The position numbers were made by a program, and so were the translations under genes. 64,000 nt of DNA from Okamejei kenojei (taxonomy: Eukaryota): positions 46,128,001 to 46,192,000 of the forward strand of contig CM069143.1 of the NCBI GenBank assembly GCA_035221665.1, read 5' to 3'. Shown here piece by piece: positions 2,218 through 55,709 of this stretch. Below the pieces are notes generated by a model. It saw only the letters and a list, made by a program, of their open reading frames with translations, was not told where the DNA came from and ran no database searches. Within the stretch, counting starts at the first letter, position 1. Each line of letters begins with the position of its first letter.

Positions 2218-2284
2218 ATGAACGTCAAGTTCCACACACTCGCCCTCTTGGTCCTCTTTGTGACTCTGACCCTTGTATCTGGAG
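2218..2284 (+). CDS. apln: Apelin coding exon 1 (signal peptide MNVKFHTLALLVLFVTLTLVSG + G)
   Basis: ATG at 2218, 22 hydrophobic codons plus 1 nt, then a canonical G|GTAAGT donor. Phase 1 joins in frame to exon 2. The N-terminus resembles fish apelins (MNVK...). Confidence 0.93.
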
Positions 2285-5657: not shown

Positions 5658-8435
5658 AAAAATGATCTTTGTTTAAATTAAAATTATTTGTGTCTTTATT
5701 CTTTGATTTCACTATATAAAGGAAACAAGCTCATCCAATCACTGATTTGGGGAAACAAAATCCAGAATGTTTTTTTAAGGCTACCAGGTGAAAATAAGAG
5801 ACCATTGGTAAGGGACAGCAGGTTGGATTGTTTGAACTGATCAGTATGGAAATGTTATTATTATGATGGAGCAGACACATGTTAACAAAGCTTCAAAGTA
5901 TAGTGAGCATCCCAGTCTGTTTAAATGGCTGGGCCCTCGTAAATATTCACTATTCAGCCTATTATGCTACATGGTGAAATTCGAGCGGGTTTTTGCATCC
6001 AGATATTGAACCTAATGCCTAGATCTACATGGCCAAAGTTTCCCATAACTGGGTCCAAACATGCATTCCCTTTCCTCCTGGCTGTGGAATATTTGTACCT
6101 ATCTTTGGGACCCACCACTGCTGTTCCAGCAGATATTGTTGTTGGAAAGAATACTCCAAACACAAAATGGTTAAATCATTTCAGGATTCCAATTGGGATA
6201 GAAATGTGATTCGTAAATGCTGAAGGTACATTGGCATTAAAAGGTTTGAGGATCGTCCTTGAGGGCATTGTACATTACTTGCTTTCAAATTCTTTTCCAC
6301 TCAATTCCAGACATAATTACGCACACCTTTTCTTTGTTTTGTTTTGGATTGACAATTTGATAACCAGGAAGTGATTGAGCCTGTAAATAAACATTACAGC
6401 TGCTGGCATCCGATTATGTCGATATAACTCAACTGCTGTAATAAAATCAAGAAACATCACGGTCCTTGGAACCCATAAATTGTTCATACAATCAACTGAG
6501 GCGCACTCCCGAGTATCAAGAAAACCATAATGATTGTTTATGTGGAATTTTTGGAATAGATTTATGCATCCTGCAAGTTAAATCATTCCTACTTGTCTAT
6601 TGTAGATTATCTGATTAATCATAAACTCTTAATGCAATTTACAGTTGATTTACAGTTTAACTCCTTACACTTAATGCAGAAGTGCAAATGACATGGCATT
6701 GAATTCACAATGCACCCCTCCAGTTGTAATATTGTTTGTTCTCTGGCCCTGTGTTCCAGATATTTATGGATATGCTTACATTTCAATTCTTAACAATGAT
6801 GATGATCTGCAGAAGACTACATTTCAAGGAATATTGAACAATTCTCTGAATTCTAGCAATATCATATATTTTTCACTAGTAATCAGCGAGGATTAGCTGG
6901 TCTATACTTAGATTTTTGTTTCACTAATATGTGGCATATTTTGACTCCTAATTTCCTCGGAGGATATTGCTTGTATTATTCGTATCCTTTACAAGGATTC
7001 ACTAATTATAAGAAGCGGTTCATTAGGTCTAAACATTGAACCAGTGGGTGTGGTTTGTTACCAAAGTTGTAGAGTGAGGATCATTCATTTATTTCTATAT
7101 TATTTTTGTCATTACATTTAAACAAGGGGTGCATGCAGTTCATGCAGTCAATGATTGGTTAACAAAAGATATAACCTTTGTGGTTGTATTTATTTTATCA
7201 GGCCTTATCACACTGGTACCAGCCAAATAAAACACTAGAATTTATTGATCAAAGCGTGGATGTCAGAAGCATTATATATGGAAATTAAACCAGCTCAGTG
7301 GCATGTCCCCATGGCTCAATATGTTTGTACAGGGAGTAACTCAGCTGTCTAGTTCAAGATCTTTAGGTCAGCTTGCTGAATGTTGTTAAAGTTAACAAAT
7401 GAAACCAGCTTCAGAACGAGTGAAAATCAACCATTCCCATTTCTTGCTCAGTCTGAGGAAGGGTCTCGATCTGAAACTTGAACTATTACTTTTCTCCACA
7501 GATGCTGCCTGACCTACTGAGTTACTCTGGCTTTTTGTGTCCATCTTCTGATGGTGTCTTTATGGACATCATTTAAGAATGGGATTGGTCCATAACTATG
7601 GCCTTTAAAATTAAATGCCCTGCAAAAATTGTACAGGGTATAAATGAGATAGGATGTACCATCAGAATCTATTGTTTAAATGCATGTAGTCAATGCATTG
7701 ACAATTGTATTTGAGATAACTCTGTTCCCAAAGCCCAAATAAAAAGTGTAGTGGTATAACAATTCTTGAAGGAAGTTTACCAAGTAAACTCCTAAATGGT
7801 TAGATCCTGCATTATTGGCTCTTTATATCAGGCCAAAGATCATCAGCATTTCTTTAAATCACGAGAAGAGGACTTGCAAAGGACCTTGTATTTAGGGGGT
7901 TGTGGAACAGGTGTGTCCTAAACCTTTCTTGTGGCGTCCTGATGACTACACCTGGAGCTCCTGGAATTTCGAGGGAGGTAGAATAAACATACTGTTTGTT
8001 TTTTGTCATTCTTTTATTTGCATCTGGTAGGAATAGGACAAGAGGTTCTTATCTCGGGTCATTAGCTAAAGTATCAGCCAGTGTTTGATGCATGATTGAA
8101 TGCTACATCATCAAAGAACCCTTTACGTGACCATTTTATCCACATTCCTCCAAAAAAAGTAAAATAGAAGACATTAAGGACAGAAAGCGATGAGTGGTTT
8201 ATGCATCGGGTCAATTTGAAGTCTCTAACTGGCTTGTTTCTGCTTAGTGCTTGAGGGTAAAATTTCTGGGTCAGGAGAGGTGGGAGACTGGCTGGGAAGG
8301 CTATTGCCTGTTCAGATGGGGTAAGGGCTTTCAAAAAAATCATGAACATGACTGAGTTCATGCAACGCAGGTTCATTTAAAAATTTACAGTGTTTCTCTT
8401 TCAGATACCAGATAAAAAGATTTTTCCTTCATGGA

Positions 8436-12975: not shown

Positions 12976-13136
12976 GGCCCATTGCCATCCTGTCAGAAGG
13001 GTCAGCACTGGATGAGAGCAGCATCAGGATGTATGTACAAAAAGAAGGCAGAAGGTCCAACCAAAGGCAAGTTCCACTGAAGAAATACAGGAGACTGAGA
13101 CCCCGACTTTCCCACAAAGGACCCATGCCCTTCTGA
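12976..13136 (+). CDS. apln: Apelin coding exon 2: (G)PIAILSEGSALDESSIRMYVQKEGRRSNQRQVPLKKYRRLRPRLSHKGPMPF*
   Basis: Branch-like CTAAT, pyrimidine tract and CCCCAG| acceptor at 12975. Encodes the invariant apelin C-terminus RPRLSHKGPMPF followed by TGA (13134-13136). The exon ends at 13141 with a CAG|GTGAGG donor. Confidence 0.97.
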
Positions 13137-13188
13137 GTCAGGTGAGGAAAATTGCAAGAGTTGCATTTATTGATTGAAATGAAATTCG

Positions 13189-13634
13189 GGACGGCACAGT
13201 GGCACAGCGGGTAGAGCTGCTACCTCACAGTGCCAGATATCCAGGTTCAATCCTAACATGTACTGTCTGTGAGGAGTTTGCATGTTCTCACAGTAGATGC
13301 GTGGCTTTCCTGCAGGTGCTTTGGTTTATTCCCACATCCCAAGGACGTGCGGGTTTGTAGGTTAATTTACTTCTGTAAAATTGCCCTCGGGTGTAGGGAG
13401 TTGGATAAATGGGATAATATAGGACTAACGGACGATCAGTAGTCTGCATGACCCGATGGGCCTGTTTCCATGTGTAGGTGGGAACTGCAGACGCTGGTTT
13501 ACAGACACAAACTGCTGGAGTACCTCAGCCGGTCGGGCAGCATCTCTGGAGAAAAGGAATAGGTGACATTTAGCGTTGAAGTCCTTTCTCAGTCTCAGAC
13601 TATTTCCTTGCTGTACAATATCTCTAAGCTAAAC
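13189..13634 (+). mobile_element. HE1-like SINE interrupted near its tail by a Penelope-tail element (about 13473-13600, minus)
   Basis: GGCACAGTGGCACAGCGGGTAGAGCTGCT head; the tail resumes at TATTTCCTTGCTGTA...CTAAGCTAAAC after the insert. Confidence 0.8.
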
Positions 13635-15821: not shown

Positions 15822-16406
15822 CTAGACCAAGTGGGACCCGTTGGGTCCCTGTCTTTGACAGGGAGGTCTGGTCCCCCAACGCAACACGTTCCTCAACACA
15901 ATATTCCACCACTAGCCCATAGACCCCACGGGAGGCCTGGTCCTCCAACGCAACCCGTTCCCCTTTCTCCAACACAACCCTTTCCCCCAACACAATATTC
16001 CAGCACTCACCCATAGCCGACAACTGCGCAGGGGCTGCTCATTTCGCCTTATTCAGCCTCCCTCATTTTTAAACTTTAAAAAAATAATCATTTTGCACTT
16101 GGTAGCTAGCTGAACTCAGTGTACTTCGATAGCATCAATGTTGCGAGCAGGGCTAAGCACAGGTTAATAAGAGAAACACAGGTCTTTTTTCCAAGTTTTA
16201 AGAGATTTTTGAACATTTTCATAAATAACTCAAGAAATAATGCATGAAAATTTCAGATAAGGCGACTTTTGACTTCACAGCGTAAATCTCTATTGGAATA
16301 TGTAAAAAGTCACCGTTAGCAGGTCGTGTTTTCAAGGAGATGTGAAATACACTTGAACTTCACACAAATGAATACACATCCAAGATCGTAGTTTTATGTA
16401 TATAGA
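15822..16406 (-). mobile_element. Non-autonomous Helitron (585 bp)
   Basis: Minus strand starts A|TCTATATACATAAAAC and ends with hairpin GGGACCC-AAC-GGGTCCC then ACTTGGTCTAG|T. Inserted between A and T with no TSD; internal imperfect tandem repeats at 15861-16016. Confidence 0.8.
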
Positions 16407-16684
16407 TGTAGACTCATAGGGATTTTTTTTTTGAATAAGTAATTCAAATTTAATTTTGAAATATTGAAAATTAATACCAAGTAGAATAACTCAACTTTCC
16501 TTGATATTCAATGACTTCAAAGAATAGTGAACCATGCAGTTCTATTGGTTGGATTTAATGTACATTTAATATAAAACAACTCATGGTTCCATCCAGAATT
16601 TTGCTCACTGATGCTTTCTCTTGCAATATCATCCTTTAATTTTATTATCTCTTGCAAGTGTGAACTCCTGTAACACAAGCTTGT

Positions 16685-16910
16685 AGTTTAGTTTAAAGAT
16701 ACAGCAAGGAAATAGGCCCTTTGGCCCACCAAGTCAGCACTGACCTGCGATCCCCGAACATTAACACTACCCTATACACACTAGAGAAAATTATATATTT
16801 ATATCAAGCCAATTAACCTAAAAACCTGTACGTCTTTGGAGTGTGGGAGGAAACTGAAGATCTCGGAGAAAACCCACGCAGGTCACAGGGAGAACATACA
16901 AACATCCAGA
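16685..16910 (-). mobile_element. HE1-like SINE, 3' part (5' part at 20951-21018, split by a CR1 insertion)
   Basis: SINE sequence stops at ...CAAACATCCAGATA and resumes after the LINE tail as AGCACCTGTTGTCACTATCGAACCCGG. Confidence 0.85.
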
Positions 16911-17292
16911 TAAATGAATAGATAAGAGGCCCACAGGAGCCGTTGGAAGAGAAGGAGGGGGAGGAGCGACACCCGACCGGTAAGCTTTAAAATCAAGCGC
17001 GGGGCTTGTTTTTTCAGAGGCCCACAGGAGCCGTTGGAAGAGAAGGAGGGGGAGGAGTGACATCCGACCGGTAAGCTTTAAAATCAAGCGCGTGCCTTGC
17101 CTAAATCCATAATGTTTCATTTGGAGAAGTGGGTTTTTTTGAGGAAGCCGCTGATTGGTGGGAAGTGGACTAGGGTAAGCAGCTGATTGGTGGGAAGTGG
17201 ACCAGGGTAAACAGCTGATTTACAGTCAGATTTCAGCAGTTTGTTGTTTGCTTTGTATTGTGTTGATATTGTATCCTGTGTAAGGGGGGAGT

Positions 17293-18018
17293 ATGAAGGC
17301 CAGGGCAGTGTACTGTTCTAGATGTCAGATGTGGGAGGTCAGGGAATCTGATAGCCCTCCAGACGTCCACATCTGCGCCAGGTGTGTCGAGATGGGGCTC
17401 CTAAAGGACTGTGTTAGGGACCTGGAGCAGCAGCTCGATGACCTCCGTCTGGTCAGGGAGAGTGAGGAGGTCATAGAGAGGAGCTACAGGGAGGTAGTCA
17501 CTCCCAGACCACAGGAGGCAGACAAGTGGGTCACGGTTAAGAAGGGCAAGGGGCAGAGGCAGGGGCCAGAGAGTACCCCTGTGACCGTACACCTGGAAAA
17601 TAGTTACTCGGGTTTGAGTACGATTGGAGGGGACAGCCTAGCTGGGGGCAGCAACAGCGGCCGGGCCTCCGGCACAGAGACCGGCCCTGATGCTCAGAAG
17701 GGTAGCAAAAAGAGGAGGGCAATTGTAATAGGGGACTCTATAGTTAGGGGGTCGGATAGGCGATTCTGTGGACGCAGTCGGGAGACCCGGATGGTAGTTT
17801 GCCTCCCTGGTGCCAGGGTCTCGCATGTGTCAGAACGTGTCCAAAAGATTCTGATAAGGGAGGGAGAGGAGCCTGATGTTGTGGTACACATAGGTACCAA
17901 TGACATAGGCAGAAAAAGTGACGAGGTCCTGAAGGGAGAATTTAGGGAGTTGGGGGGGAAAGTTAAGGAGAAGGACCAAAAGGGTAACGATTTCAGGATT
18001 ACTGCCTGTGCCGCGTGA
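17293..18018 (+). pseudogene. CR1 ORF1: zinc finger, coiled coil and SGNH/GDSL esterase; frameshifted and deleted at the 3' end
   Basis: CSRC...HICARC, leucine-zipper-like segment, IVIGDSIVR and VHIGTND esterase blocks. Confidence 0.88.
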
Positions 18019-18060
18019 CAGTGAGAGTAGGAATGAAATGAAAAAGATAATAGACAGAGA

Positions 18061-20858
18061 ATAAGGGATGGTGGGTTTCTAAAATGTGTATATTTTAATG
18101 CTAGGAGCATTGTAAGTAAGGTGGATGAACATAGAGCCTGGATTGACACCTGGAAATATGATGTTGTGGCAATCAGTGAAACATGGTTGCAGGAGGGCGG
18201 TGATTGGAAACTAAATATTCCAGGATTTCGTTGCTTCAGGTGTGATAGAATTGGAGGGACCAGAGGGGGAGGTGTTGCATTGCTTGTCAGAGAAGATATT
18301 ACAGCAGTGCTTTGGCAGGATAGAGGGCTCGTCTAGGGAGGCTATTTGGGTGGAACTGAGAAGTGGGAACGGTGTAGCAACACTTTTAGGGGTGTACTAT
18401 AGACCGCCAAATGGGGAGCGAGAATTGGAAGAGCAAATATGTAAGGAGATAGCAGATATTAGTAGTAAGCACAAGGTAGTGATTGTGGGAGATTTCAATT
18501 TTCCAAAAATAGACTGGGAAACACATTCTGTAAATGGGCTGGATGGTTTGGAGTTTGTAAAATGTGTGCAGGATAGTTTTTTGCAGCAGTACATAGAGGT
18601 ATCGACCAGAGAAGGGGCAGTGCTGGACCTCCTGTTAGGAAATGAGTCAGGTCAGGTGACGGAGGTATGCGTTGGTGAGCACTTCGGGACCAGTGATCAA
18701 AATACCATTAGTTTCAATATAATTATGGAGAGAGTCAGAACTGGACCTAGGGTGGAGATTTTTGATTGGAGAAAGGCCAACTTTGAGGGAATGCGTAAGG
18801 ATTTTAAAGGAGTGAATTGGGACACTTTGTTTCATGGGAAGGATGTAGAAGAGAAATGGAGGACATTTAAAGGGGAAATTGTAAGAGTACAGAATCTTTA
18901 TGTCCCTGTTAGGTTGAAAGGAAATAGTAAAAATTGGAAAGAGCCATGGTTTTCAAGGGAAATTAGGACACTTGTTTCGAAAAAAGAGAGATATCTACAA
19001 TAATTATAGGAGGCATGGAGTAAATGAGGTGCTAGAGGAGTATAAAGAATGTAAAAAGAATCTTAAGAAAGAAATTAGGAAGGCTAAAAGAAGATATGAG
19101 GTTGCTTTGGCAAGAAAGGTGAAAGTAAATCCAAAGGGTTTCTACAGCTATATTAATAGCAAAAGGATAACGAGGGATAAAATTGGATCATTAGAGAACC
19201 AGAATGGACAGCTATCTGCAGAGCCAAAAGAGATGGGGGAGATATTGAACAATTTCTTTTCTTTGGTATTCACCAAGGAGAAGGATATTGAACTCTGTGA
19301 GGTAAGGGGAAAAAGTAGAGTAGCTATGGAGACTATGAGATTCAAAGAGGAGGAAGTACTGACACTTTTGAAAAATATAAAAGTCCTGACAGGATATTCC
19401 CTAGGACATTGAGGGAAGTTAGTGTAGAAATAGTAGGAGCTATGACAGAAATATTTCAAATGTCATTAGAAACGGGAATAGTGCCGGAGGATTGGCGTAC
19501 TGCGCATGTTGTTCCATTGTTTAAAAAGGGTTCAAAGAATAAACCTAGCAATTATAGACCTATTAGTTTGACGTCAGTGGTGGGCAAATTAATGCAAAGG
19601 ATACTTAGAGATAATATATATAAGCATCTGGATAAACAGGGTCTGATCAGGAACAGTCAACATGGATTTGTGCCTGGAAGGTCATGTTTGACAAACCTTC
19701 TTGAGTTTTTTGATGCGGTAACTAGGGAAATTGATGAGGGTAAAGCAGTGGATGTTGTCTATATGGATTTCAGTAAGACCTTTGACAAGGTTCCCCATGG
19801 AAGGTTGGTTAAGAAGGTTCAGTCTTTGGGTGTTAATGGCGGAGTAGCAAGATGGATTCAACAGTGGCTGAATGGGAGATGTCAGAGAGTAATGTTGGAT
19901 GGCTGTTTGTCAGGTTGGAAACCGGTGACCAGTGGGGTGCCTCAGGGATCTGTGTTGGGTCCACTGTTGTTTGTCATGTACATCAATGATCTGGATGATG
20001 GGGTGGAAAATTGGATAAGTAAGTATGCAGATGATACTAAGATAGGTTGTGTTATGGATAATGAAGTAGATTTTCAAAGTCTACAGAGATTTCGGCCATT
20101 TGGAAAAGCGGGCTGAAAGATGGCAGATGGAGTTTAATGCTGTTAAGTGTGAAGTGCTACATCTTGGCAGGACAAATCAAAATAGGATGTACATGGTAAA
20201 TGGTAGGGAATTGAGGAATGCTGTGGAACAGAGGGATCTAGGAATAACTGTGCATAGTTCCCTGAAGGTGAAATCGCATGTAGATAGGGTGGTAAAGAAA
20301 GCCTTTGGTGTGCTGGCCTTTATAAATCAGAGCATTGAATATAGGAGTAGGGAAGTAATGTTAAAATTGTACAAGGCATTGGTAAGACCAATTCTGGAGT
20401 ATGGTGTACAATTTTGGTCGCCTAATTATAGGAAGGATGTCAACAAAATAGAGAGAGTACAGAGGAGATTTACTAGAATGTTGCCAGGGTTCCAGCAACT
20501 ATGTTACAGAGAAAGGTTGAACAAGTTAGGTCTTTATTCTTTGGAGCGCAGAAGGTTAAGGGGGGACTTGATTGAGGTCTTTAAAATGATGAAAGGGATA
20601 GACAGAGTTGACGTGGATAAGCTTTTCCCATTAAGGGTAAGGAAGATTCAAACAAGAGGGCATGACATGAGAATTAAGGGACAGAAGTTTAGGGGTAACG
20701 TGAGGGGGAACTTCTTTACTCAGGTGGCTGTGTGGAATGAGCTTCCAGCAGAAGTGGTGGAGGCAGGATCGATTTTAACATTTAAAAGTAAAGTGGATAG
20801 GTATATGGACGTGAACGGAATGGAGGGGTATGGTCTGAGTGCAGGTAGATGGGACTAG
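18061..20858 (+). pseudogene. CR1 ORF2 (APE endonuclease + reverse transcriptase), frameshifted
   Basis: YFNARS, AISETW, YYRPP, GDFNFP, YRPISLTS, QHGF, DFSKTFDKV, PQGSVLGP and YADD motifs spread over five ORF pieces. Confidence 0.93.
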
Positions 20859-21104
20859 GGGAAAACAAATGGTCGGCATGGACTGGAAGGGCCGAGAGGG
20901 CCTGTTTCCGTGCTGTAATTGTTATATGGTTATATGGTTATATGGTTATAAGCACCTGTTGTCACTATCGAACCCGGTCTCTGGCACTGTAAGGCAGTAG
21001 CTCTACTCCTTCACCACTCCAGCTCTGGAAGAAATAAGCAAATCCTTAGTTTTGTGGATTAAATTTTAGTGTATTTTTTTTCTTCTAAAATCCAGTGAGT
21101 GAAG

Positions 21105-21485
21105 GCCCAGGGGTGTCAAAAGCTCTTCATATGTTAACCCACTTTTTCCTTGGATCATTCCTGTACACCTTGTCTAGACCATCTCCAGACCCAGCACATC
21201 CTTCCTCAGATATGGTGCTCAAAATTGTTTACAATACTCCAAATGCGGCCTGATCAGCTGCTTATAGAGCCTCAGCAGTACATCTCTGTTTTTGTTTTCT
21301 AGCCCTCTTAAAATAAATGCATTGCGTTTGCTTTCTTTACTACTGATTTGACTTGCAGATTAACTTTTTGGGAATCCTGTAACAGTCCTCCCAAGTCCTT
21401 TTGCACCTCTGATTTTTTGATTCTCTCCCCATTTAGAAAACACATTTATTCCTAAGAAAATAGTCTACGCCTTTATTCCTATGTC
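21105..21485 (-). mobile_element. CR1 ORF2 internal fragment
   Basis: Reverse complement resembles the segment encoding LYK.L.RP.LEY..QF...Y.RKD of the full copy. Confidence 0.7.
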
Positions 21486-24311
21486 TTCCGTTTCACCTTA
21501 AAATTCATACTACTTATTAGTTTCCCACAGACCCAAGTTGTTCACGTTTTGTTTAAATTGTCGCCAGACTTCTGACTGCCCTGTGAACTCTATTCCTGGA
21601 AACTGCTATCATTTCAAATTCTCCTTATCCCACAGAAGGCCAAAGAGTAATTTGTATCATATGAAACAATATGCAATGAAGTAAGCCTTCGTGTGAGCAA
21701 GCTTTGATTTAGCAGATATTCTGAAATATTTGAAAGGATAAAAGATATTAAAGCATAAAAAATATCTCCAAGTGAGTCCTTTTAGTCTTCAAAAGTTTCA
21801 TCCAGGGAAACATCACTCGTGCAGGACATAATGTGACTTGTTTTGACTCCATTCCATTAGTGCTCTTTGTCTCTATAATGGCATCAATCTGCCTGTTTCG
21901 AGTTAAATACTAGATACCACCCTTAAATACTAGAGTTGAAATCAACTGTTGCAGATCTTTGCAATACCCACATTTATTAGTTGGTTAGGAAAGCCTGAAA
22001 TGATATAATACCGCAATGGCTAGTTGGAAAAAAAAATGCTTTCTGTGTGTTCTAGATGCACCCCCTCCAGGAAATTAAATCCTGGAAAGTAAATCCAATC
22101 CATGAAGTCTGAAATGTTACAGATAATTGTTCTGCGTTTTTATGTTCTATTTTTATTCTACCCCAGGTGCACCAGTCTACCTCCCCCCAAAACACAAGGT
22201 TATTAAAGTACATGTTTGACATTATCTAATCATTACTGCCTCATTTAGCACCTCCTTATTCTTAGATCTTTGCTGTTGGCTATTCACCAAACCTGTCAAT
22301 AATGGCAATAGGGAGATGTCCAGAAAGGAAATTGAACACCTGTTGAGAATGCCACCTGGAATGGCGGTACAGCTCGGCCAGAGTTTAATTTAGTTCATTG
22401 CTATCTAACTGTTCAGATATTTTGAATATTTCTCTTCCATCACAAGTTCCAACATAACTCGCATTTAGCATTTTGACTTCCCAGTAAATTGTCGTTTTTC
22501 AATACAAAGATTTCCTGATACGCAGCCAATAACTTTAGGCACTGGGAACATTCTGCAATTAATCTCTTCTTTCAAGCTGGTTATGCTGTATCGTGTGCTG
22601 TTTTCTGGAAGATGTTCTTTGGATTTAGTTTTACGGACTAAAAGATTTGGCCGATGCTCTGCTTAGCAAGACGGGCATTGATCTTCATGTTAAAACATCA
22701 TTCACACCACCGTCCCTCTACCTCAAATGGGGGGATTAAATGTCCGATCAAGGTCACCACCCTACCCCTCGTGTATTTGTAGCACAGTGCAGTGGAGAGC
22801 CATTTGTGAGAGAGAGATAAGAGAGGCAGAGTACAAAACTTGGAGTGCCCACTGTACAGTTGGGAAACAAACAAAATTCACTGCTGCTTTGGTTGTCCAG
22901 ATGTGTAGCAGTGGTATTGAAAATAAAACAGTCACAAAAACACACAGTGAATTATGTTTAAGCGCCAACAACTGTTGTGGGGAAAACATATAATCTGTTT
23001 GGCACTAACAAGCAGCAGCAAGATGAATGAGTGATTGTTCATGTTATTTTTTACTTGAGTAAGAGATATTGCCTAGAAGAAATGGTATACTTTTTTTGTG
23101 TAGCGCAGTGTGATTATTCACATTCACTTGAACAAGCCTCCTTTTTTCAGTACACTCTACATATTTAGAACATTGGATGTAGCCATTTAAAAAAAAAAGG
23201 TTTAATATTCCAATATTTATCAATACATTATGACAAACAGATTTGTTAATATCTCTGCTTCTGTTTTGTACCACTACAGCCCAGAACTACACTACATTAT
23301 TAAGACCTATAACTTCAAATTCCATTCAGATATTGCATTAATTCGGGACGCATTATGTGAGTTTGCAATAGATATTAAAATGACGAACATGTAAATAAGA
23401 TGTACATATTATGGAAGTAAGGACTTTGTGAGACCACGAGTGGAATATGTATCTGCACATGTGCCTGCAATTGAGAATGATAGGGACAATATCTCACGTA
23501 CACAGATTAATTTCAATTAACTATACATATAAAAATAAAACCTGAATGTCAAAGAGCCTGGACTTTGTCAGCAATCCAAGTGAGATACTTCAGTTTTTTT
23601 CCGATAGTCATTTTGGCACAAGATACAATGCGTCTCTGACAAGTCTCAACCCATTTCAAATTTATAGAAAGTGAGCCTGCCGAATACTTGCTGTGTGACA
23701 GGTAACTGCCCATTGTTAGATCAACAGCAGGCCCACTCTGAATTGGTCCGATTCCAGCTTGCTTTGCTGCAGTAACGATGATATCAGGTTAATTATTATC
23801 TGCATGTTAACAAAATGAAGAAACTTAAACTAATGGGACTTTTTACTCAGTTGCCAGGAGCCTGTATATCTTTGTGGGATAATGCAAAATCAAACTCAAA
23901 TGAGAATGACATGCTTTCCACACTGGTGGAAAATATTTCCAGATCTGTGGCTACGCGGGATATGCTTCAAACAACACGTCTTCAACACTGGCAACTTGTT
24001 AACAGAATAATTCACAAACAGCTGTTCCGTCCATCATTCTTTCTTTTCTACAAGGGCATTTTGAAAAGGCTGAACTGTTCTGTGCAACAGAAGCCTGTGA
24101 ATGCTGTAACGTTATTCATGTCTAGCTCTCTTGCATACACACACTCACACTGGCATAAACACCGCCAGCATGGTTGGAGCCCAGTTGGTTCAAGTCATTT
24201 AAGGTTGTTTTATTGGCAGAATATTCTTTTAAGAACGTGCCCTTTTAAAAAAAATATTTCAAACCATCCTGACAATCTGTCCAAATAGATATTACATTGT
24301 GCTGCTTCAGG

Positions 24312-24626
24312 TTTTAGTCTTAGCTTTAGAGATACAGCATGGAAACAGGCCCTTTGCCACACTGAGTCCGTGTCGACCAGCGGTCCCCCGCACATTAACA
24401 CTATCCTACACACAGGACGGACAATTTACAATCTTTACCAAAGCCAATTGACCTACAAACCTGTACATCTTTGGACTATGGGAGGAACCCAGAGCTCCCG
24501 GGTTAAACCCACCCAGGTCACAAGGAGAACGTACAAACTCCGTACAGGCAGCATCCATAGTCAGGATTGAACCTGGGTCTCTGGCGCTGTAAGGCAGCAA
24601 CTCTACTGATGGGCCACCGTGCTGCC
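24312..24626 (-). mobile_element. HE1-like SINE
   Basis: Complete head (GGCACGGTGG...CAGTAGAGTTGCTGCCTTACAGCGCCAGAGACCCAGGTTCAATCC) and tail. Confidence 0.9.
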
Positions 24627-25988
24627 CTGTGCCACCGACATGAGCCAACATCTATTAACTTTTGCTTCTACGGTAAAGATAGAGGGAAAGAACATAACCA
24701 GGAATCTTATTTTTGATTTCTATTCAGGAACTAAAACAGATTTAGGCAGGGGCACAATTTAAGCTTGTCAAGTGACCTGCTGACACTTATTTTCTGTGCT
24801 CACATGTGAAGAATGGGCCTTTGGATGAAAGTTGAGGGTAACCAGCACCAGTGAAACGGATTCCATGTGGGAGACAGGATTCTCATGAAAGGATGGTGAA
24901 TATTGAGAAATATTGGAAAGGGAACTAAGATGGGAAAACATTTCATAAAATTACGCAGCATGGAAACAGGCACTTTGTCCACTATGACTATATCAACATT
25001 TTTGCCAATCTATGCTAATCTTGTTTGTCTGCATTGGTACCAAATCCTTGTGTTTCTTAGATGGTTGTTGTTGGAAATGCTTAATGGAGGCACTGTGGAT
25101 GCCTAACTGCTGAGAACATTTGAGGCCCAATTGATTGGTTGTTTGGTCATGAAGGGAAATGGAGGGTTCAGGAATTGAATGTTAAACTGAATGTCCAGCA
25201 TGGGTTCTATTGAAAACCTGTGGAAGGGCAGAGTGGCCTCAAATGGTATTTTCCTACTTCTGCTTTTTTATATATTCTGGAAAGCATATTTAAGCCATAA
25301 TTGCAGACTCAGACACCCAAATACAGTCGTCGAAAAAGCTTGAATATAGTTCAAATGAAAGAAACATTTTTTGCATGCTGATGAAATCTTAAAGAAAAAA
25401 AACATTAATCTTCCCATATTTTGGTACAATTTCGTATCTACTTCATTATATATTAATTCTTTAATGTGTATCAGTTGATCTATTTTTGTACTTGTAATTC
25501 ATAGTCAAAACACAAGTCTTATGTCGGTTACTGTCACTCACTAATATTTCAACAATATGGCAATAAATTACTTTATAATTAAGACTACCAAGTAGTATTA
25601 AATGACTCAAATATGACTTGAGAAAGAGGAGGCTAATTACATTGTGGTACAGTGGTAGAGACGAGTGGATGGGCTGCTGTATCCAAACAAGCACTGCTGA
25701 AACACAGTCACATCTGCACTTACAATTTTCAATTGCTAATCTAACAAACTCAAATTATGTGTGGAGCATTTCAGTTTCATAATGGTGTAATTAAAATTGA
25801 TTATTATGAAATTTGAAAGCAACGGGTTATTTCTGTTGAGCATTTTGGAAGCCAGCAAATTCATTAATGACTTGAAAATATTAGCTTTGTGCATGGTTTG
25901 AACAGGCATTTTTTACATAACTACATCCCTACAGCTATTTCATTTGATGCCCACATAGTATTTGGATTCTCTTTTCCAAAAGCTCATG

Positions 25989-26240
25989 GGTGGCACGGTG
26001 GTGCAGCGGTAGGGTTGCTGCCTTACAGCGCGAAAGACCCGGGTTCGATCCTGACTATGGGTGCTATCTGTACAGAAGGTATTTGTTCGCCACGTGACCA
26101 CTTGGGTTTTCTCCGGGTGCTCTGGTTTTCTCTCACACTCCAAAGATGTATCAGTTTGTAGGTTAATTGGCTTCAGCAAGATGGTCAGCATGGACTCGGT
26201 GGGCTGAATGGCCTGGTTCCACGCTGTGTCTCTAAAGTTG
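25989..26240 (+). mobile_element. HE1-like SINE (internally deleted)
   Basis: GGCACGGTGGTGCAGCGGTAG A-box region and GGTTCGATCC B box; tail GGCCTGGTTCCACGCTGTGTCTCTAAA. Confidence 0.88.
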
Positions 26241-26829
26241 AAAGTTTCTGCTTTCACATTCAATGCAACAAATCTGCCGAGAATGGACCGGATCTGCTGG
26301 CAGATAAGTCCGTATCTGGGCTATTACAAAGTGTCGGCTGAAGTGCAGCTTTCCACTCAATGGGCAGGTTTCCCAGCCTGCTGTGGGACACCTGCTCTCA
26401 GGCTGGGAAATCTGCCCACTGGGCCTGCACAGGATTAAACCTCATGCAAGTACAGAAGTCCCATTAAAACGAATGGGAAAAATTGGCAGCTGCTGACAGA
26501 TAGGTAAGTAGACGTTTTTAGCAGTCAGGAACATGGACCTGTGTTGTTTAATAGCTGGAGTTGCTACCAACTCTACTCCCCATGCACAAGGATGGCCATC
26601 CCTTGTGGCTTGGACAGTGATTAAACACGAGGATGTCAATGCCAGCAATCACAACATTTCCAGAACTAAAACAAATTGCCCAAATCAAAGATCAACTACT
26701 GCCATCTGCCAATTTGGCACGATTTATAAATGACTGGCACGTTAAATGAAAGTCTGATGGTATTTATTCGATAGATCCTGAGATTCATTCCAACTTAAAA
26801 AAAGGACGTAAAAATTATATTATGATTCA

Positions 26830-26977
26830 TTTCTTTTTGCATCAGAAATTGCTCACAACTTTCATGATATCTATTCTGTTTGTATATTAACCAGTGGTTA
26901 AAATCGGTTATACAATGAGGAATCCCAAATGTGGATCAGGATCAGTCATGAGAGATAATAGAGTATCTATCCTTGAA
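26830..26977 (+). repeat. About 150-bp direct repeat, copy 1 (copy 2 at 28570-28722)
   Basis: GCATCAGAA.TTGCTCACAACTTTCATGATATCTATTCTGTT...CCCAAATGTGGATCAGGATCAGTCATG occurs twice. Confidence 0.9.
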
Positions 26978-27630
26978 TCATGACAAATCTTAAAGCGAAT
27001 AGTCCAGTATGTTTTTTTCTTCCCAGAACTTATTAACATTGAGAAGTTGAAGGCAGAGGAAACTGTAACATATTATTGCTCTTTCAAATAAAATACTGTG
27101 GTTCAAATAAAACTTGGGTAGATTCATGAAAGTCTCTTCTGATATAAGATTGGGACCATTGTAATTTCACCCATGTAAACCTAATTAATAATGGAGATAA
27201 AATTCTGTTCTTCGTGAGCTCCTAATAGTTTATAATGCAAGTTGTAATGTGTGATAATGTAATAACTTTGGAGGATAAGCTCCACTTTCATACAAGCTAC
27301 TGCATACAAATATTAACTGCAGACCACTATTGAAAAAAACATTGCAAATATTTTCCAGGTTACTTAATCACCAACATTCAAATAAAATTTGGATTTAGTT
27401 TCTCATCTTTAAAACAGTCGTTGAAGTAAATGAGAAGTGTGATGTAGCAAATAGGTCTAGGGACTCTTTCCTTCAGCAATTGAACTAATTGCTTGAAGGA
27501 AACCAAACAACAGAATTGGATTAATGATCTTTTTGCCCACCTCTTATGATATTTTGCAAAACACCAGTTATTATTCTGTCTGTTTCCTGTTTTTGTCCCT
27601 CCATTGTTACATAGAACATAGAATAGTACA

Positions 27631-27872
27631 CTAGTCGCACTAGCTTCTCATTTTCACACCACAGACAGCTTACAATGGCTTGTTCCCTTTATCATCGATA
27701 CTTTTTTGCATATCTTTCATTCATTGTTCTTTATCTCTCCACATCGTCTATATCTCTCGTTTCCCTGATCCCTGACCAGTCTGAAGAAGGGTCTCGACCC
27801 GAAACGTCGCCTATCTCCTTCGCTCCTTAGATGCTGCTGCACCCGCTGAGTTTCTCCAGCTTTTTGTGTAAC
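27631..27872 (+). mobile_element. 242-bp Penelope-tail element with intact minimal hammerhead core and 14-bp TSD
   Basis: CTGAAGA-A-GGGTCTCGACCC-GAAA-C-GTC at 27781-27808; CATAGAATAGTACA duplicated at 27617-27630 and 27873-27886. Confidence 0.8.
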
Positions 27873-28260
27873 CATAGAATAGTACAACACAGGAACAGGC
27901 CCTTCGGCCTACAATGTTTGTGGCGAACATGATGCCAAGATAAACTGATCTCATCTCCCTGTACATGAACCATATCCCTCTACACCTTGTACTTGCACAT
28001 GCCTATCTAAAAGCCTCTTAAACGGCACTTTCGTATACCACCACCATTACTAGTGGCAATGCGTTCCAGGCCCCCATCATTCTCTGTGTGTAAAAAAACT
28101 TGTCCCGCATATCTCCATTAAACTTTCCACCTCTCCCCTTCCTGTTATGCTCTAGTGTTGGACATTTCCACCCTGGGAAAAAAGTTCTGACTATATACCT
28201 TATCTATGCCTCTCATAATTTTACATACTTCTACCAAGTCTCCCCTCAATGTCCAACATT
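27873..28260 (-). mobile_element. CR1 LINE 3' fragment (tail extends to about 27609)
   Basis: Same family as 5180-5657. Confidence 0.85.
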
Positions 28261-28569
28261 GGCATAATCATTACTCTCAGCCGTTACTCAAATTAATTGA
28301 TGATCTTTGATCAGGTAAAAGGCCCGTTCCAAAATGTCAGACAATCTTAATTCATAACTGCAGCACCTTACCTGGCAAGCAGATTGAGAGCTAGTTAAAT
28401 TTAGTAAGACGGACTGGGCAGGATTATCACAGGCAGGCTTGAGACTTCAACATCAGCTGTTTGAATGAGAATCAAGATTCTGACTACATGAGTTGCCAGA
28501 TCAAAGACTGATTTTATTTAATGTGAATCAATCCTAATCTGTTAACAGCTCTTTCCCTTTCATTTTAGC

Positions 28570-28722
28570 TTTCTTTTCGCATCAGAATTTGCTCACAACT
28601 TTCATGATATCTATTCTGTTTATATATTGCCAGTGGTTAAAAACAGTTATACAATGAGGAATTCCTTACCCAAATGTGGATCAGGATCAGTCATGGGAGA
28701 TGATGGACTATCTATACTTGAA
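28570..28722 (+). repeat. About 150-bp direct repeat, copy 2
   Basis: See 26830-26977; differs by a short insertion and several substitutions. Confidence 0.9.
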
Positions 28723-29333
28723 AATACTTTTAAAATGACTGTCTATGCTTTTTGCTTGGCTAGTAATTAAGGCACATTATGGTAGGTTTTCTAAGCAATC
28801 AACTGATAAAGTTGAATGTTCTTCAAACTAATCAATTAAGGTCAATGGGATAAAATCAGGCAAATTCTATGCAGGGTGGGAAATCCACTGCCTCCATGGT
28901 GCAAATCAAAATCTGCCTCAACCTTTATTGTCAAAAAGAAGTTATAATCAAAACTTTAAACCTTCCATTTGTCCCTTATTAGGGACTTCAACAGCAGAAC
29001 ATACATACTATCTCTATGCTTGGACCTGAGGATATGCATTCTTTTTATCAGAGATTTAAAATTTATATTCATCGGAAAGATGCTCTACGGCTTTATGGGA
29101 CTCTGACAATGGGGAATGGTGTGTTGGTTTTCCATGTAGTTACACCCACAACTCCATACCTTAGTGTTGGTTGGGTAAAGCTACACAGCCGCTGAATGGT
29201 GGCATACGGAATGGTTTATAGCCTGCAATGTGGCTGAAAGCAACACAAAGCCCAAGATATTCCTTTGTATAGTGGAACACTTTGAGAAAGACTGCCATCA
29301 GAAATGAAATTACTAATCTGTTATAGTACTTTT

Positions 29334-29659
29334 ATGAGAGCGATGTTAGAATCTTGAAGTGGACTTGCCTGCAAGTGTGTTCATGTACCAAACTCTATGG
29401 TCACAGTATTATTGCCCCTAATTGAATTACTTAAAGCCTACCTCATTTTTGAACAAGAGAATTTCAAATTGCACTTAATGCCCCAATACATATCTGGGAG
29501 CCTTTATGTGTAAATATAAGTTGGAGCGTCAAAAGGCATTTGAAATTCTCTTGCTTGAGTAAATTTGAGGGGCTGATTTACCTGGTCTGTGGTTATCGAG
29601 TTTTGTATATGAACATTCTTGCAGGCAAGTCCACTTTAAGGTTCGAACATTGCTCACAT
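29334..29659. repeat. 326-bp fold-back (long inverted repeat, possibly an old MITE)
   Basis: Arms 29334-29406 and 29587-29659 are complementary at 60/73 positions without gaps; an inner perfect 16-bp pair lies at 29454-29469 / 29538-29553. Confidence 0.9.
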
Positions 29660-31464
29660 TGACATCATTTCCTTCCTGGAGTCACATTTCTTTCCTCACT
29701 GCAGATCTCCTTCTGTCCCTCATCACCACATCCTAGCTGATTGTGTCTGTGACCATTCAATCCAGCAACATATTGTGACCTCAATCACCTCTTCCAGCGA
29801 AGTATGAAGCTCCTCCCCCGATACTCAACTCTATTCTTGCAGTTTCTCTGTGATCTCCTTCCACTATAATTTCCCCTCACCCCCTTGAATTCTAGTACTA
29901 ATGCAACAATGGCTTTGCGTGCATGCCATTTGCCAGGTTGATATTGTTTGCAAGTTTTTTTGCCGTATGCGCAATAAAGTATTGTGGCTGGGTGCCCAGA
30001 CATAAATCACACTGTCCCATTGCACATTGCTAGTTTTATGTGTCTTTTGAGGCACAGAACAATTTCGCGCCCCAGATATTTGACAAGTCGGCTGGTGTGC
30101 AAGAGGAGCAGCAGCAGCATGGTTAGCTTTGGCATCATGACAGCCAGCTGTGTGAAAGCATTGCATTAAAAACCATGAAAGAGCAATGTCTTTAGTCATA
30201 GTGGTTAGAAGCTGGAACACACCATCTGGAGTCTTCCCAAGTTTAATCTGAAGACTTGGGTAACTCTGAGCTTGTATAACTCTAAGCATTTCAGTTCAGT
30301 TCTTTCAAGAAAGTTGGAGTCACAACTCAAATGCCTCACTAGTAAAGTTCCTGGTGCTACCACATGCAATGGTCGAGTGCACCAACACAAACCACTTCTT
30401 AAAAGTACTTTACACATCTACGCTACGGTAGTGGAATAAGGTTTAATTCAAGTGAAAATGTCAATGTACACTTGTCAAACTGAATGGTTTTTATGCTGCT
30501 AAATTCCATGTGAGTCTGTGTAGATTTGCAAAAGAAAGGGTAACTGGATAGTTGAGGAGCCCTCGAGGGACAATGGGAGGCCGGACATCGTGTCAGATAG
30601 AAAATGCAACCGAGCATGAGGAAACCAGAAATAAAAGGCGGAAATAATTTTCAATGGGGAACTGCAGTTTTATTCTCTTCGTGCATGAGATGGTATTGGC
30701 TAGAAGAAAGGATGGCTTTCATTATTCAAATCTTCTTTGCAATCTCAGGACAAAGTTTATACATTTGTGTTCATAACATTCGAGCCAAAAACACAATTTG
30801 TAAAATTTACCCCAAGGTCACAAAATAAAAATAGATAATGAAGACCATTTGGTTCACCTTAATTCACAATGAATTGAAAAGCATATGGGGCCTACTGACC
30901 TCTTCATTCACATTCCCAACATATGCTCCAAGCAAACAAAGCTGTGCACTCAGAATCCTAACATTTATCCTGTTGTTTTAATGAACAGACTTTCTCTATC
31001 ATATAAGATACACATTTACTTAATGTAACAAAATCAATCTTGAGAAAACTAAATCTCCGCATTCTTACAAATTGAAAAAATCTTCAAAGGTTTTATTTAG
31101 TATGAAGAGGTCTGATTATAATGGAAAGTCAATTAGCTATTGTAAAAAAGCTCCTGATTAGGTGAGTGGCAGGGAAAGTGGTGGATATTGATTGGCTTGA
31201 GAGAGAGAATGGTTTACAGGAAAATAAAGTGGGTAAATAGGACTGAATGGAATTCTCTTGACAGCATAAACCTGATGGGCCAATTGGCCTCTTCCCATGT
31301 GTATCAAATTATTATTGGAAAAGTTGTCACATTCAGCATATATAAAATTAAGGGAAAATTGAAATAACCCATGTAGTTTTGTGTAGTTTTTTGTAACTGC
31401 AATGAAATTGGTATCCTTCAACACGTTTAACATTTTTTTACCTTCTCTCTCTTTTTTTTTACAG

Positions 31465-32130
31465 GAATCCCCTAAATTCTCTTTCCTTTGAATCTCATCA
31501 CTACCTTTTGAAACCTCCATGGAACCCAGGCCATCCCTAGAAGTGGAGCACCCAAGCCTCACCATAGAAACGTGTCCATTTACGAGCATCTTAGTGTCGG
31601 CAATCAAAGGCAACGGAAGAGGCCCTCATTCACATCGCTGACCTGTGACCCTGTCAGGCATTTTGCACTGTGCAACATCTGATTTGAGGGTCTGTTCACG
31701 TCGGTTTTATCTTAACAGAACACAACTGTCTCCTTTGCGAGAACTCAACTATCTCAGGGTGTTTAACATTAAAAAACATGCAAAAATTAGTGCTGATTCT
31801 TATTTATTAAATTTGGAAAATGTATTATTGTTCTGTAGGGCCAAGGAAGATTCTAATTCTTCATAAGATATTCTGTAAATACTTTAATTTTTTGTTACTA
31901 AATTATAAATATATGCTTAGCTCTTTGGAGCACTGCTTTTCTTCTGTAGCTTGAGGCGTTAAAATGTTCCGTCTTATAAAGAATGTGTTGTGCAAATTAA
32001 TCCTAATTATTGTAAAAAAAAGCATAGAAATAATTATTAAAATAAAATGCTTCACTTTATTATATTAAAGAGTCGTGCAGCTAATATATTGTCAATGAAG
32101 AGGCTCCCAAGTTCTGTGAAAATAAAACAA
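31465..32130 (+). other. apln: Probable apelin exon 3 (non-coding 3' UTR)
   Basis: Very strong acceptor CCTTCTCTCTCTTTTTTTTTACAG| at 31464, AU-rich downstream sequence, and AATAAA at 32041 and 32121. Mammalian APLN has a wholly untranslated third exon. No transcript evidence. Confidence 0.6.
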
Positions 32131-32327
32131 AAATATAATTATTTAAGAAAAAACAAGAGCCTCAGTGCCTGATTGCAAGTATCTGACTTTTTCTTAACAC
32201 ATTAAAAAAAACATCCCTCAAAAGTTAGATGTGCTCTCATTGCAATGTGTTTCGAAGGCTTTGAACTTCATTGAGGAGAACTGCTGTTAAGTGCTGGCAA
32301 GAGTTCAGGGATTTTTTAAAGTATATA

Positions 32328-33823: not shown

Positions 33824-35569
33824 TTTCTGCATGGAACAGTGAACCACATCAATTGCATACAGATCAACTTGCCAGTTTCCATTAGCTTATACCTGTTAAC
33901 CACTGTCAGAGGTCTTGGACTGCAGCTAATCGGAGTTCACCAAGGTAAAAAGATAATGATCGTGAAATTCACTCGTGTAGCACGTGACTTCTAGGTGCAT
34001 TGCAATCAATCATGCAGCATGTAACTTTGGAGAACAAGCTTCCATGTGCTTGACATGCACCAGGCACTGAAAGTACAAGCCTGCTCCTTCAATCACGTGT
34101 CTGGAAACCAGTTCCTCATCACTCTCCCTCCTGAAAGATAGGACAAATAGATGTTGAACTTTCAATTGACCCCATTGCCTATAAATTATAATGCACAGCG
34201 CCACATGTTGTGATTCCTCTACTACTGATTTTCCGTCTCTGCACAAGCCAGATAAGCTAGAAACAATCAATTACAAATACTAAACATATTTATACTTGTA
34301 GTTGAGAATAAAACCATAAGGTCACCTAGTTTGTGTCAGTTTTCCACAGGCCTTTGCATTTGACCCTTTGCTGCATGGTATGTGAGGTCAAGCTAGTGCC
34401 TGGTTGCTCACCTAAAGTGGAGGATGGATGCGATGGATGCCCATGAGCGTATCTGCCCAATGAGCAGCTACAAGTAACCGTTGGAATAGTGGTGGGACCC
34501 GAATGGTGTCATCCTGAGAGAGATTAGCAGCTTCACAATTAGTGAAGCTATGACCACATACCAGGGTAGACCATCGGCTGAACTCAAAGCCTGCTTGTGG
34601 CTTGATCACTGGAATTCCCACACAAGCTCTCAGGCAGCCAAATAATGGCCAGGTTTCTCTGTGTGTGTTGTAATTAATGTTCATCTATGGATTGCATGAT
34701 AGATAGGGTGATCTGAGAATTCAGGGGGGGAAAATGGGTGCAGCCAAACTATTTTGTGAGATGGCATATGAGCTGCCTTCTCCCCCAGCCACAATGCAGT
34801 CTACTTGTGGCTGGCGATTGAACAGGTGTAGATTCTGCCTTTGAAACCTTTCCTACTGCGCCTGGCAATTTGCTGTCCGCCAGCGACTCCAAGTGTCGGA
34901 GGCAGTGATGTGGTGCCTGCCTTCTTACTGTTCTGACTACTGAGCCCTGCTGCCTGATCCTGGATGAGTGGCATGTATTGCCCAGTGCAGCATTGTGATC
35001 GTGGTGAGGAGAGGGACAGGAAAAACAACAGACTTGGAACATCTGGATGGTGTAAAGCAGATGGGTTTGCAGAATGAAGTGGAGATGAAACACAAGGAGT
35101 AGGATTGGTTAAGAGCAAAACATTATCTTCAGTAATCTGCTGTGTGGCAGCCAAGCCATTGTCGATCTTCTGTAGAATAGTTAATACACAAAAGGACATA
35201 AAGTGCTGGAGTAGCTAACGGGTCAGGCAGCATTGCCATAGAACACAAATAGGTGACATGCAGTCTGAAGAAGGCTCCCAACCTGTCACCAATCCATGTT
35301 CACCAGAGATGCTGTCTAACCTGCTGAGTTACTCCAGCACTTTGGATCCTTGTCAACCTCTATTTTTCAAATAACTGTCTGTAGGCACAGTTGAGTCTCT
35401 TGCCAGTTTGCTGGTTCAGTCTCTCTTTGCATGCATCCTTTTATTGCATGGGACATTAGCATTTTTCAATGTGCATATATGGTATGCCTACAGTGACTGG
35501 ATCGCTAAAGGTTTGAGATGTATGCATGAGTGATGGTATTTGACTGAGGTTGTGTGCATGTCTGCAGAG

Positions 35570-55612: not shown

Positions 55613-55709
55613 AGTTCATTGTAATGTTATTTTTAGGTTCTGAGGAAAGGTCTCATACCTAAACTGTTTACTGGGCCTCGTTCCACAGATGGGGTGGGAA
55701 GCGAGGTAG

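What the first reader, a model, noticed from the sequence alone, without database searches (positions are those of the whole stretch)
27617..27886. Intact minimal hammerhead ribozyme core on a young insert, sense to the apelin pre-mRNA
Seen: CUGAAGA, an extra A, stem II GGGUC/GACCC, GAAA, then C-GUC (27781-27808), in a 242-bp insert with a perfect 14-bp TSD. Related cores occur at about 7453, 8500, 13570, 35264, 37452, 55510 and 55640. Known: Penelope-like elements carry minimal type I hammerheads whose tiny palindromic stem III (here ACGU) is thought to work as a dimer. Inference: a very abundant non-autonomous, ribozyme-bearing mini-retroelement family in this genome. Sense intronic copies might cleave host pre-mRNA in pairs, although stem I is weak in this copy.
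Basis: partly seen in the sequence, partly recalled or inferred. Interest (0 to 1): 0.7.

Follow-up and report, generated by a model that had tools for sequence, protein, structure and literature searches.

The report
Penelope retrotransposon end with cutting scars
The insert is the clipped end of a young, protein-coding Penelope-type jumping gene sitting in an apelin intron, and its self-cutting RNA motif is likely idle there, but rare scars in sister copies likely record that the motif does cut the element's own RNA, 31 bases after its likely capped start.

Summary
Observation confirmed: hammerhead core at 27781-27808, 242-bp insert, 14-bp TSD, sense in apelin's last intron. The interpretation needs correcting. 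The insert is not a non-autonomous mini-element. It is a 5'-truncated 3' pseudo-LTR (98% identical) of a young autonomous Penelope-like element (RT + GIY-YIG, about 1,180 aa, Neptune/Nematis-type linker); the core 34-mer has 25,755 exact matches. Minimal hammerheads in such elements are known, and this scan noted the family before on other DNA of this genome.

Not in the notes or papers I saw: sister-copy junctions mark two RNA ends. (1) 54 of 100 copies begin within -7..+6 of the core, and restarts at A(-3) follow a G in 13 of 14 loci, as a reverse-transcribed cap would leave. (2) Rarely, junctions fall exactly on the predicted cut: oligo(A) between C17 and G1.1 (4 of 95, against 0 of 187 at two distal controls) and duplications restarting at G1.1 (9 of 25). 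Bulk junction counts at the cut are no higher than 4 nt downstream, and two A-tracts occur there too.

Paired cleavage of apelin pre-mRNA is unsupported: the only other sense core is broken and the predicted fold hides this one.

The parts
27617..27630 (+). left copy of the 14-bp target-site duplication
   Evidence: exact match to 27873-27886; single copy in other members of the host repeat
27631..27872 (+). 5'-truncated 3' pseudo-LTR of a young autonomous Penelope-like element; starts 83 nt after the ORF stop (-150 from core C3) and ends at +91, the tail-less 3' end class
   Evidence: 238 identities, 4 mismatches, 2 gaps against full-length copy L038; 3' end classes
27669..27779 (+). pyrimidine-rich, AG-free tract ending in CAG: looks like a 3' splice site just before the core (use not shown)
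   Evidence: 110-nt AG-free zone, 74% pyrimidine, in L038; exact donor-to-acceptor joins at 2 loci only
27776..27782 (+). initiator-like CCAGTCT (YYANWYY consensus, recalled); likely capped transcription start of the element at A 27778 (-3)
   Evidence: 54 of 100 copies begin at -7..+6; G before A(-3) in 13 of 14 restart junctions
27779..27810 (+). minimal type I hammerhead: stem I 27779-80 with 27809-10 (2 bp); C3-A9 27781-87; extra A 27788; stem II 27789-92 with 27797-800; GAA 27801-03; palindromic ACGU 27804-07; C17 27808; predicted cut 27808/27809
   Evidence: sequence; subfamily conservation; junction scars in sister copies
27873..27886 (+). right copy of the 14-bp target-site duplication
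27873..28250 (-). older host repeat that was interrupted (looks like the 3' end of a LINE on the minus strand; family label recalled, not tested)
   Evidence: 44 BLAST pieces in fetched DNA, those printed 65-79% identical
2218..2284 (+). apelin coding exon 1 (signal peptide, phase-1 GT donor)
   Evidence: only hit of a motif search over 63 kb; inferred
12976..13141 (+). apelin exon 2 with the stop codon
   Evidence: Pfam PF15360 E=5.7e-16; contig X1 record 1
31465..32140 (+). apelin exon 3 (3' UTR); end inferred from AATAAA at 32041 and 32121
   Evidence: contig joins exon 2 to 31462; acceptor and poly(A) signals
7453..7480 (+). old family stub, the only other sense core in the apelin pre-mRNA; broken (G17, ACUU instead of ACGU)

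Best explanation
The insert is the truncated 3' end of a young autonomous Penelope-like retrotransposon, likely copied from uncut read-through RNA, and its hammerhead is likely a passenger in the apelin intron. Numbering: core C3 = 0. Shown: the parent is pLTR-ORF-pLTR with RT and GIY-YIG; copies end at about +92 or +127; this copy runs from +91 back through an intact core to -150 and has a 14-bp TSD. Inferred mechanism: the element's RNA starts capped at A(-3), three bases before the core, so stem I can only be 2-3 bp. The protein primes reverse transcription inside the RNA at +92/+127, as shown in vitro for the anole element. On RNA that starts in the 5' pLTR this yields the abundant 95-130 bp stubs that stop at the cap. 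On RNA that reads into a downstream pLTR it yields long, variably truncated copies such as this one. The ribozyme likely cuts only a small share of RNAs, probably when bound by the element's protein. A cut at C17 would remove the capped 31-nt leader, and the enzyme sometimes joins across the cut ends, which leaves the oligo(A) and repeat scars.
For: Parent element. Ends: of the first 100 matches on contig C1 of a 36-mer lying 3' of the cut, 54 begin at -7..+6, 23 run past -288, 10 end between -247 and -12, 13 at +10..+31; 57 end at +88..+99 and 31 at +125..+127. Cap signature: in 30 of 434 tandem junctions fetched, 14 restart at -3; 13 have G before it (11 not templated by either side), 1 A, 0 T, all with different flanks (P=3.5e-7). 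By eye over the 100 listed: 33 G, 4 A, 0 T, 63 native C. At the +28 restarts only 2 of 9 have G (P=0.001), so the G is not a general habit of the enzyme. Cut signature: 4 of 95 insertions at the scissile bond begin with 3 or more A, against 0 of 100 seen (of 243) at +14/15 and 0 of 87 at +44/45 (counted by eye; P=0.012). Nine fetched loci show 3-34 nt A- or U/A-rich inserts between an intact C17/U17 and G1.1. Duplications restart exactly at G1.1 in 9 of 25 (P=9e-7 against uniform), and in 7 of those 9 the outer 5' end is also G1.1. 63-64 nt tandem units start at G1.1 at 3 loci. Literature: internal priming, protein-assisted cleavage, uncut RNA as main substrate (PMC11167929, parts 1-2 read).
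Against: Bulk junction counts at the cut (97) equal those at +32 (90; P=0.66), although both exceed +20 (62) and +40 (27); both sites form palindromes in head-to-head twins, which inflates them. A-tracts also occur at +31/32 (2 of 24 AAA-preceded loci against 5 of 20 at +28; P=0.22), and 6 of those 24 are joins to another RNA's poly(A) tail. Genome-wide the base before A(-3) is G 2,143, A 2,449, T 1,214, not G-dominated; at least 13 of 30 sampled A cases are re-amplified composites and solo junctions are ragged. Some stubs carry templated bases to -6/-7, so the start is not a single base. No read pile-up at -3 or +28 in the one raw RNA run (another organism, poly(A), 6% read). ViennaRNA predicts neither the monomer nor the dimer hammerhead fold. 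No cleavage was tested.
Confidence: 0.78

Rival explanations
1. Same parent element, but the pile-up of 5' ends at the core marks a block to reverse transcription (splicing factors on the acceptor-like CAG, or bound protein or structure), not the RNA's start. The scars at the cut are ordinary microhomology and repair junctions, and the ribozyme never cuts in vivo.
For: A 110-nt AG-free pyrimidine tract ends at CAG exactly there; ends spread over -7..+6; no bulk excess at +28 over +32; the D. virilis intron ends at helix I (PMC4209133, part 2 read).
Against: A block does not explain a non-templated G at -3 (13 of 14) but mostly A at +28, nor inserts bounded by C17 on one side and G1.1 on the other (9 loci), nor 9 of 25 restarts on one base.
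Confidence: 0.12
2. One reading: a self-propagating, non-autonomous ribozyme mini-retroelement (retrozyme-like) of about 240 bp.
For: Most copies lack the ORF (77 of 100 end before -288); 15 of 38 solo stubs have an exact TSD of 8-25 bp; animal retrozymes derive from PLE pLTRs (bioRxiv 2026.07.22.740005, parts 1-3 read).
Against: None of the 29 other best matches shares the -150 boundary; stubs match the autonomous element base for base; no tandem arrays of hammerhead-bearing 170-400 nt units were seen in the samples; 33 of 71 short copies are head-to-head twins, a known PLE insertion form.
Confidence: 0.04
3. Sense intronic copies cut or mis-splice host pre-mRNA, here apelin, either as ribozyme dimers or through the acceptor-like site.
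For: Core intact and sense in the last intron; the family leaves scars of cutting; Xenopus retrozymes are depleted in introns (bioRxiv 2026.07.22.740005, part 2).
Against: The only other sense core in the pre-mRNA lies 20 kb away and is broken; P(stem II) is at most 0.035 in five contexts because the core pairs with the downstream pyrimidine run; the anole ribozyme cut only with protein (PMC11167929); a normally spliced exon 2-3 contig exists, though that sample may lack the insert.
Confidence: 0.06

Closest known systems
Minimal type I hammerheads in pseudo-LTRs of metazoan Penelope-like elements (Cervera and De la Pena 2014, PMC4209133; parts 1-2 of 4 read)
   Same: Core, extra base between 9 and 10.1, G10.1-C11.1, palindromic 15.2-16.2, short helix I, most copies solo and from truncated elements.
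   Different: Helix II is 4 bp and helix I 2 bp; that paper states there was no in vivo evidence of cutting, whereas this family shows junction scars at the predicted bond.
Poseidon of Anolis carolinensis, PAc (Frangieh et al. 2024, PMC11167929; parts 1, 2 and 4 of 4 read, supplements not read)
   Same: Two 3' end classes about 35 nt apart (the tail), downstream of the hammerhead; both target strands can be extended; uncut RNA is the main template.
   Different: Here the ATG lies 163 nt after C3, beyond the tail, not inside the ribozyme; the protein has a CX4CX2C linker; those authors found no RNA-seq reads at the cut, while this genome keeps rare DNA scars there and a likely cap signature.
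Neptune/Nematis clades of EN+ PLEs (Craig et al. 2021, PMC8557442; passages read)
   Same: C-terminal GIY-YIG with internal cysteines, CX2-5CxxC linker, 5' truncation, inverted copies, 30-40 bp tail, tens of thousands of copies.
   Different: The ORF is longer (about 1,180 aa, proline-rich insert before the RT); clade not placed on a tree here.
Animal non-LTR retrozymes (PMC7229834, passages; bioRxiv 2026.07.22.740005, parts 1-3 of 5)
   Same: Type I hammerhead, PLE-related, small, many copies.
   Different: Retrozymes are tandem arrays of 170-400 nt units cut to monomers and circularised; here the copies are dispersed truncation products of an autonomous element.

Membership tests
EN+ Penelope-like element | single ORF with RT and C-terminal GIY-YIG endonuclease | tested here: met
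   1,185 and 1,178 aa ORFs; RVT_1 E=4.5e-6 and GIY-YIG E=0.004, both under Pfam's gathering score; 978 homologues at E<=1e-30, the listed ones mostly with RT and partly GIY-YIG domains
EN+ Penelope-like element | pseudo-LTRs from partial tandems, optional 30-40 bp tail, inverted 5' copies, variable TSD | tested here: met
   L038 and L072; ends at +92/+127; 33 of 71 short copies head-to-head, TSD 8-25 bp in 15 of 38 solos
Neptune or Nematis clade | CX2-5CxxC linker between RT and EN | tested here: met
   CX4CX2C in both full ORFs; definition in PMC8557442
Neptune or Nematis clade | RT phylogeny with named references | not tested
   no named PLE references were at hand; no tree built
minimal type I hammerhead (min-HHR) | conserved core, NUH triplet, extra base at 9/10.1, G10.1-C11.1, palindromic stem III | tested here: met
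   unchanged between the two main subfamilies
minimal type I hammerhead (min-HHR) | helix I and helix II supported by pairing or covariation | tested here: inconclusive
   N1.1 alternates A/G opposite U2.1 (124 and 27 of 225); no double-sided changes among the common pairs; predicted fold is a different hairpin
minimal type I hammerhead (min-HHR) | self-cleavage (dimer or protein-assisted) | not testable with these tools
   only indirect scars at C17/G1.1; no read pile-up
non-LTR retrozyme / non-autonomous mini-element | fixed short unit without ORF, amplified as such, typically in tandem arrays | tested here: not met
   0 of 29 other best matches share the insert's 5' end; upstream runs into the ORF

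The most novel reading that the evidence does not exclude
Tens of thousands of copies form a fossil record of the Penelope RNA cycle. The RNA starts capped three bases before its hammerhead. The minimal ribozyme does cut in the germ line at the predicted bond, which removes the cap-bearing 31-nt leader as a self-limiting switch. The telomerase-related reverse transcriptase then jumps across tailed cut ends or re-anneals and recopies, making short repeats that start at the cut.
Probability: 0.5. Interest if true: 0.7.

Novelty: new member of a known kind. Interest (0 to 1): 0.5.

Why it matters
The insert itself is ordinary. The family matters because the role of PLE hammerheads is stated to be unclear (PMC8557442), in vivo evidence was stated to be absent (PMC4209133), and RNA-seq reads at the cut were not found (PMC11167929). 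If the scars are what they seem, they give in vivo evidence of cutting at the predicted bond and place the element's start at the ribozyme's 5' edge. That would explain the tiny stem I and the mass of short stubs, and it offers a purely computational test that can be run on any PLE-rich genome. I did not find this in print in ten searches; Lunse et al. 2017, Arkhipova 2006 and the supplements of PMC11167929 were not seen and may bear on it.

Tried and rejected
Rfam at E<=10: no hammerhead match. Cap test on solo junctions: inconclusive; it resolved only in tandem junctions. Bulk excess of 5' ends at the cut: not seen against +32. The +29 count (280) was discarded because the native G satisfies the pattern. 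Spliced or back-spliced template: the exact join of the donor-like site before the ATG (+159) to the acceptor-like site (-1) occurs at 2 loci (3 arms, older subfamilies); a looser search added 3 unrelated hits, the +176 control gave 0 element-to-element joins of 3 hits, and one non-splice join at +189 exists (L199), so this is unresolved. Per-copy conservation of core bases in old copies (0.80) is not above the 3' flank (0.84, on which copies were selected), as expected for neutral decay. Sequencing runs: no RNA holder on record was listed; the lays showed no begin or end pile-ups; contigs show only that the start of the ORF is present. Folding: forced monomer hammerhead -4.2 against MFE -7.6 kcal/mol; forced double hammerhead -6.7 against cofold -19.7; these ignore Mg2+, tertiary contacts and protein. 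Lunse et al. 2017 was not held; I know it only through a review's passage (PMC6765202). Rows dropped: 132 of 611 copies selected on the core were left out of the conservation counts; one of the 100 ends (L145, -15) is a misaligned deletion and was kept in the count; 4 of 29 duplications starting at +41..+44 were left out of the 9-of-25 count, and two more +28 starts with internal changes (L437, L438) were not counted as +28.

Full report
Numbering: core base C3 (window 27781) = 0; the predicted cut lies between +27 (C17) and +28 (G1.1).

1. Observation. The core, the 242-bp insert (27631-27872) and the 14-bp TSD are as described. The target is an older repeat in which the 14-mer is single. Apelin lies on +: exon 2 matches Pfam Apelin, a contig joins it to 31462, and splice sites give intron 13142-31464. 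The insert is therefore sense, in the intron after the stop codon. Of the seven other cores listed, one keeps all core bases (55529, antisense, outside the gene); the only other sense core in the pre-mRNA (7453) is broken. The genome is 2.76 Gb. The closest homologue of the element's protein is from a bamboo shark (69%), and earlier notes call the genome a skate.

2. What it is. Of 538 candidates 40 were scored and 30 fetched. All 29 non-self loci continue upstream by 64 to more than 1,400 bp, into an RT and GIY-YIG frame. A search with that 1.7 kb gave 7,516 candidates. Of 39 long loci fetched, two hold pLTR-ORF-pLTR with ORFs of 1,185 and 1,178 aa. The insert matches the 3' pLTR at 238 of 244 columns, starting 83 nt after the stop. 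The CX4CX2C linker points to Neptune or Nematis (PMC8557442 passages); no tree was built. Exact counts: 25,755 for the core 34-mer and 41,214 for a 36-mer 3' of the cut, controls 0.

3. Copy anatomy. Among the first 100 matches of the 36-mer, on contig C1, 3' ends cluster at +88..+99 (57) and +125..+127 (31), the PLE tail. 5' ends: 54 at -7..+6, 23 beyond -288, 10 between -247 and -12, 13 at +10..+31. Of 71 short copies, 33 are head-to-head twins and 15 of 38 solos have TSDs of 8-25 bp. The finding's insert belongs to the rare intermediate class, and its template carried an intact or seamlessly rejoined core. I measured this pile-up before consulting earlier notes; several of them report it for other DNA of this genome.

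4. Why copies stop at the core. The sequence at -5..+1 fits the initiator consensus (recalled), and other PLEs have Inr-like starts in the pLTR (PMC2377424 and PMC3846280, passages). Solo junctions were uninformative (G 2,143, A 2,449, T 1,214 before A(-3)). Tandem junctions, where the enzyme appears to restart after reaching the RNA end, were clear. In 30 of 434 fetched, 14 restart at -3 and 13 of these follow a G, 11 of them non-templated, at unrelated loci. An extra G from copying the cap is recalled from other retrotransposons; my search for a paper on it returned none. The rival is a block at the acceptor-like CAG that ends a 110-nt AG-free tract.

5. Does the ribozyme cut? Positions 0-27 are unchanged between the young and the main older subfamily (170 copies not selected on the core), while 13 of 62 downstream positions differ; N1.1 alternates A/G opposite U. 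Two small old clusters show A at G12 as often as or more often than G, from CpG decay or a dead lineage. Folding predicts the core paired with the downstream pyrimidine run, not the hammerhead. Bulk junction counts are +20: 62, +28: 97, +32: 90, +40: 27, so there is no sharp bulk peak. Rare junctions are sharper. Nine loci carry 3-34 nt A- or U/A-rich inserts between an intact C17/U17 and G1.1. Oligo(A) inserts number 4 of 95 at the cut against 0 of 187 seen at two distal sites (by eye; P=0.012). Duplications restart at G1.1 in 9 of 25, usually after extra A's (P=9e-7). Pieces of ORF, leader or tail plus A's are joined to G1.1 at three loci, and 63-64 nt tandem units begin there at three more. 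Against: two A-tracts at +31/32 and six joins to a foreign poly(A) tail there (5 of 20 against 2 of 24, P=0.22). These scars are on the order of 1 in 1,000 copies or fewer. Whether the A's are RNA tails or non-templated additions before a template jump (known for R2 RT; PMC8857657, abstract) is not resolved.

6. Mechanism. Shown: parent element, end classes, junction sequences. Inferred: capped start at A(-3); internal priming at +92/+127 as in PAc (PMC11167929); stubs from the 5' leader and long copies from read-through into a downstream pLTR; occasional protein-assisted cutting that would remove a 31-nt capped leader. For apelin the motif is likely inert: no intact sense partner, an unfavourable fold, and the PAc ribozyme needed protein.

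7. Comparison and novelty. The element meets the tested PLE and min-HHR features and fails the retrozyme test. It is a new member of a known kind. The cap and cut scars were not in the short earlier notes I saw or in ten literature searches. Papers seen: PMC4209133 parts 1-2; PMC11167929 parts 1, 2, 4; bioRxiv 2026.07.22.740005 parts 1-3; passages of PMC8557442, PMC2377424, PMC6765202, PMC3846280, PMC7229834; abstract of PMC8857657. No supplements were read, and Lunse et al. 2017 was not held.

8. Verdict. Observation confirmed, interpretation partly supported. The locus alone would score about 0.2; the family's junction record, which bears on an open question and is directly testable, lifts it to 0.5.

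Noticed in passing
L228, L234, L235, L237, L241, L242, L243, L253 (around 340-1730): Eight unlinked loci share more than 1.3 kb of flank at 89-94% around one inverted-plus-direct PLE stub, with internal ~108-bp tandem units: the stub sits inside another repeat that amplified afterwards. A second composite is shared by L224, L225, L229, L251, L120 and L174.
   Followed up: partly
L362, L363, L364, L370, L371, L373: Six loci join the same foreign 3' end (AATAAA plus poly(A)) to the PLE at +32, as if the enzyme jumped onto another element's poly(A) tail.
   Followed up: no
L284, L285/L286: Exact join of the donor-like site just before the ATG (+159) to the acceptor-like site before the core (-1); both arms of one head-to-head twin carry it. 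Possible cDNA of a spliced or 160-nt back-spliced RNA.
   Followed up: partly
L317, L330, L333, L356, L358, L359, L365, L366 and others; L346, L347, L351: Recurrent small deletions spanning the predicted cut (+24..+31 or +24..+27 missing), possibly trimmed and rejoined ends; no control at other positions.
   Followed up: partly
window 27789-27800: The stem II sequence is nearly self-complementary between two molecules (-16.9 kcal/mol duplex against -1.7 for ACGU) and might nucleate, or trap, dimers.
   Followed up: no
window 35150-35345, 55370-55700: Old head-to-head and nested stubs of the same family, the twin form seen genome-wide.
   Followed up: partly
L072 and L038 ORFs, residues about 170-460: A proline-rich, low-complexity stretch of about 290 aa before the RT makes the ORF longer than most listed homologues (about 900 aa).
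   Followed up: no
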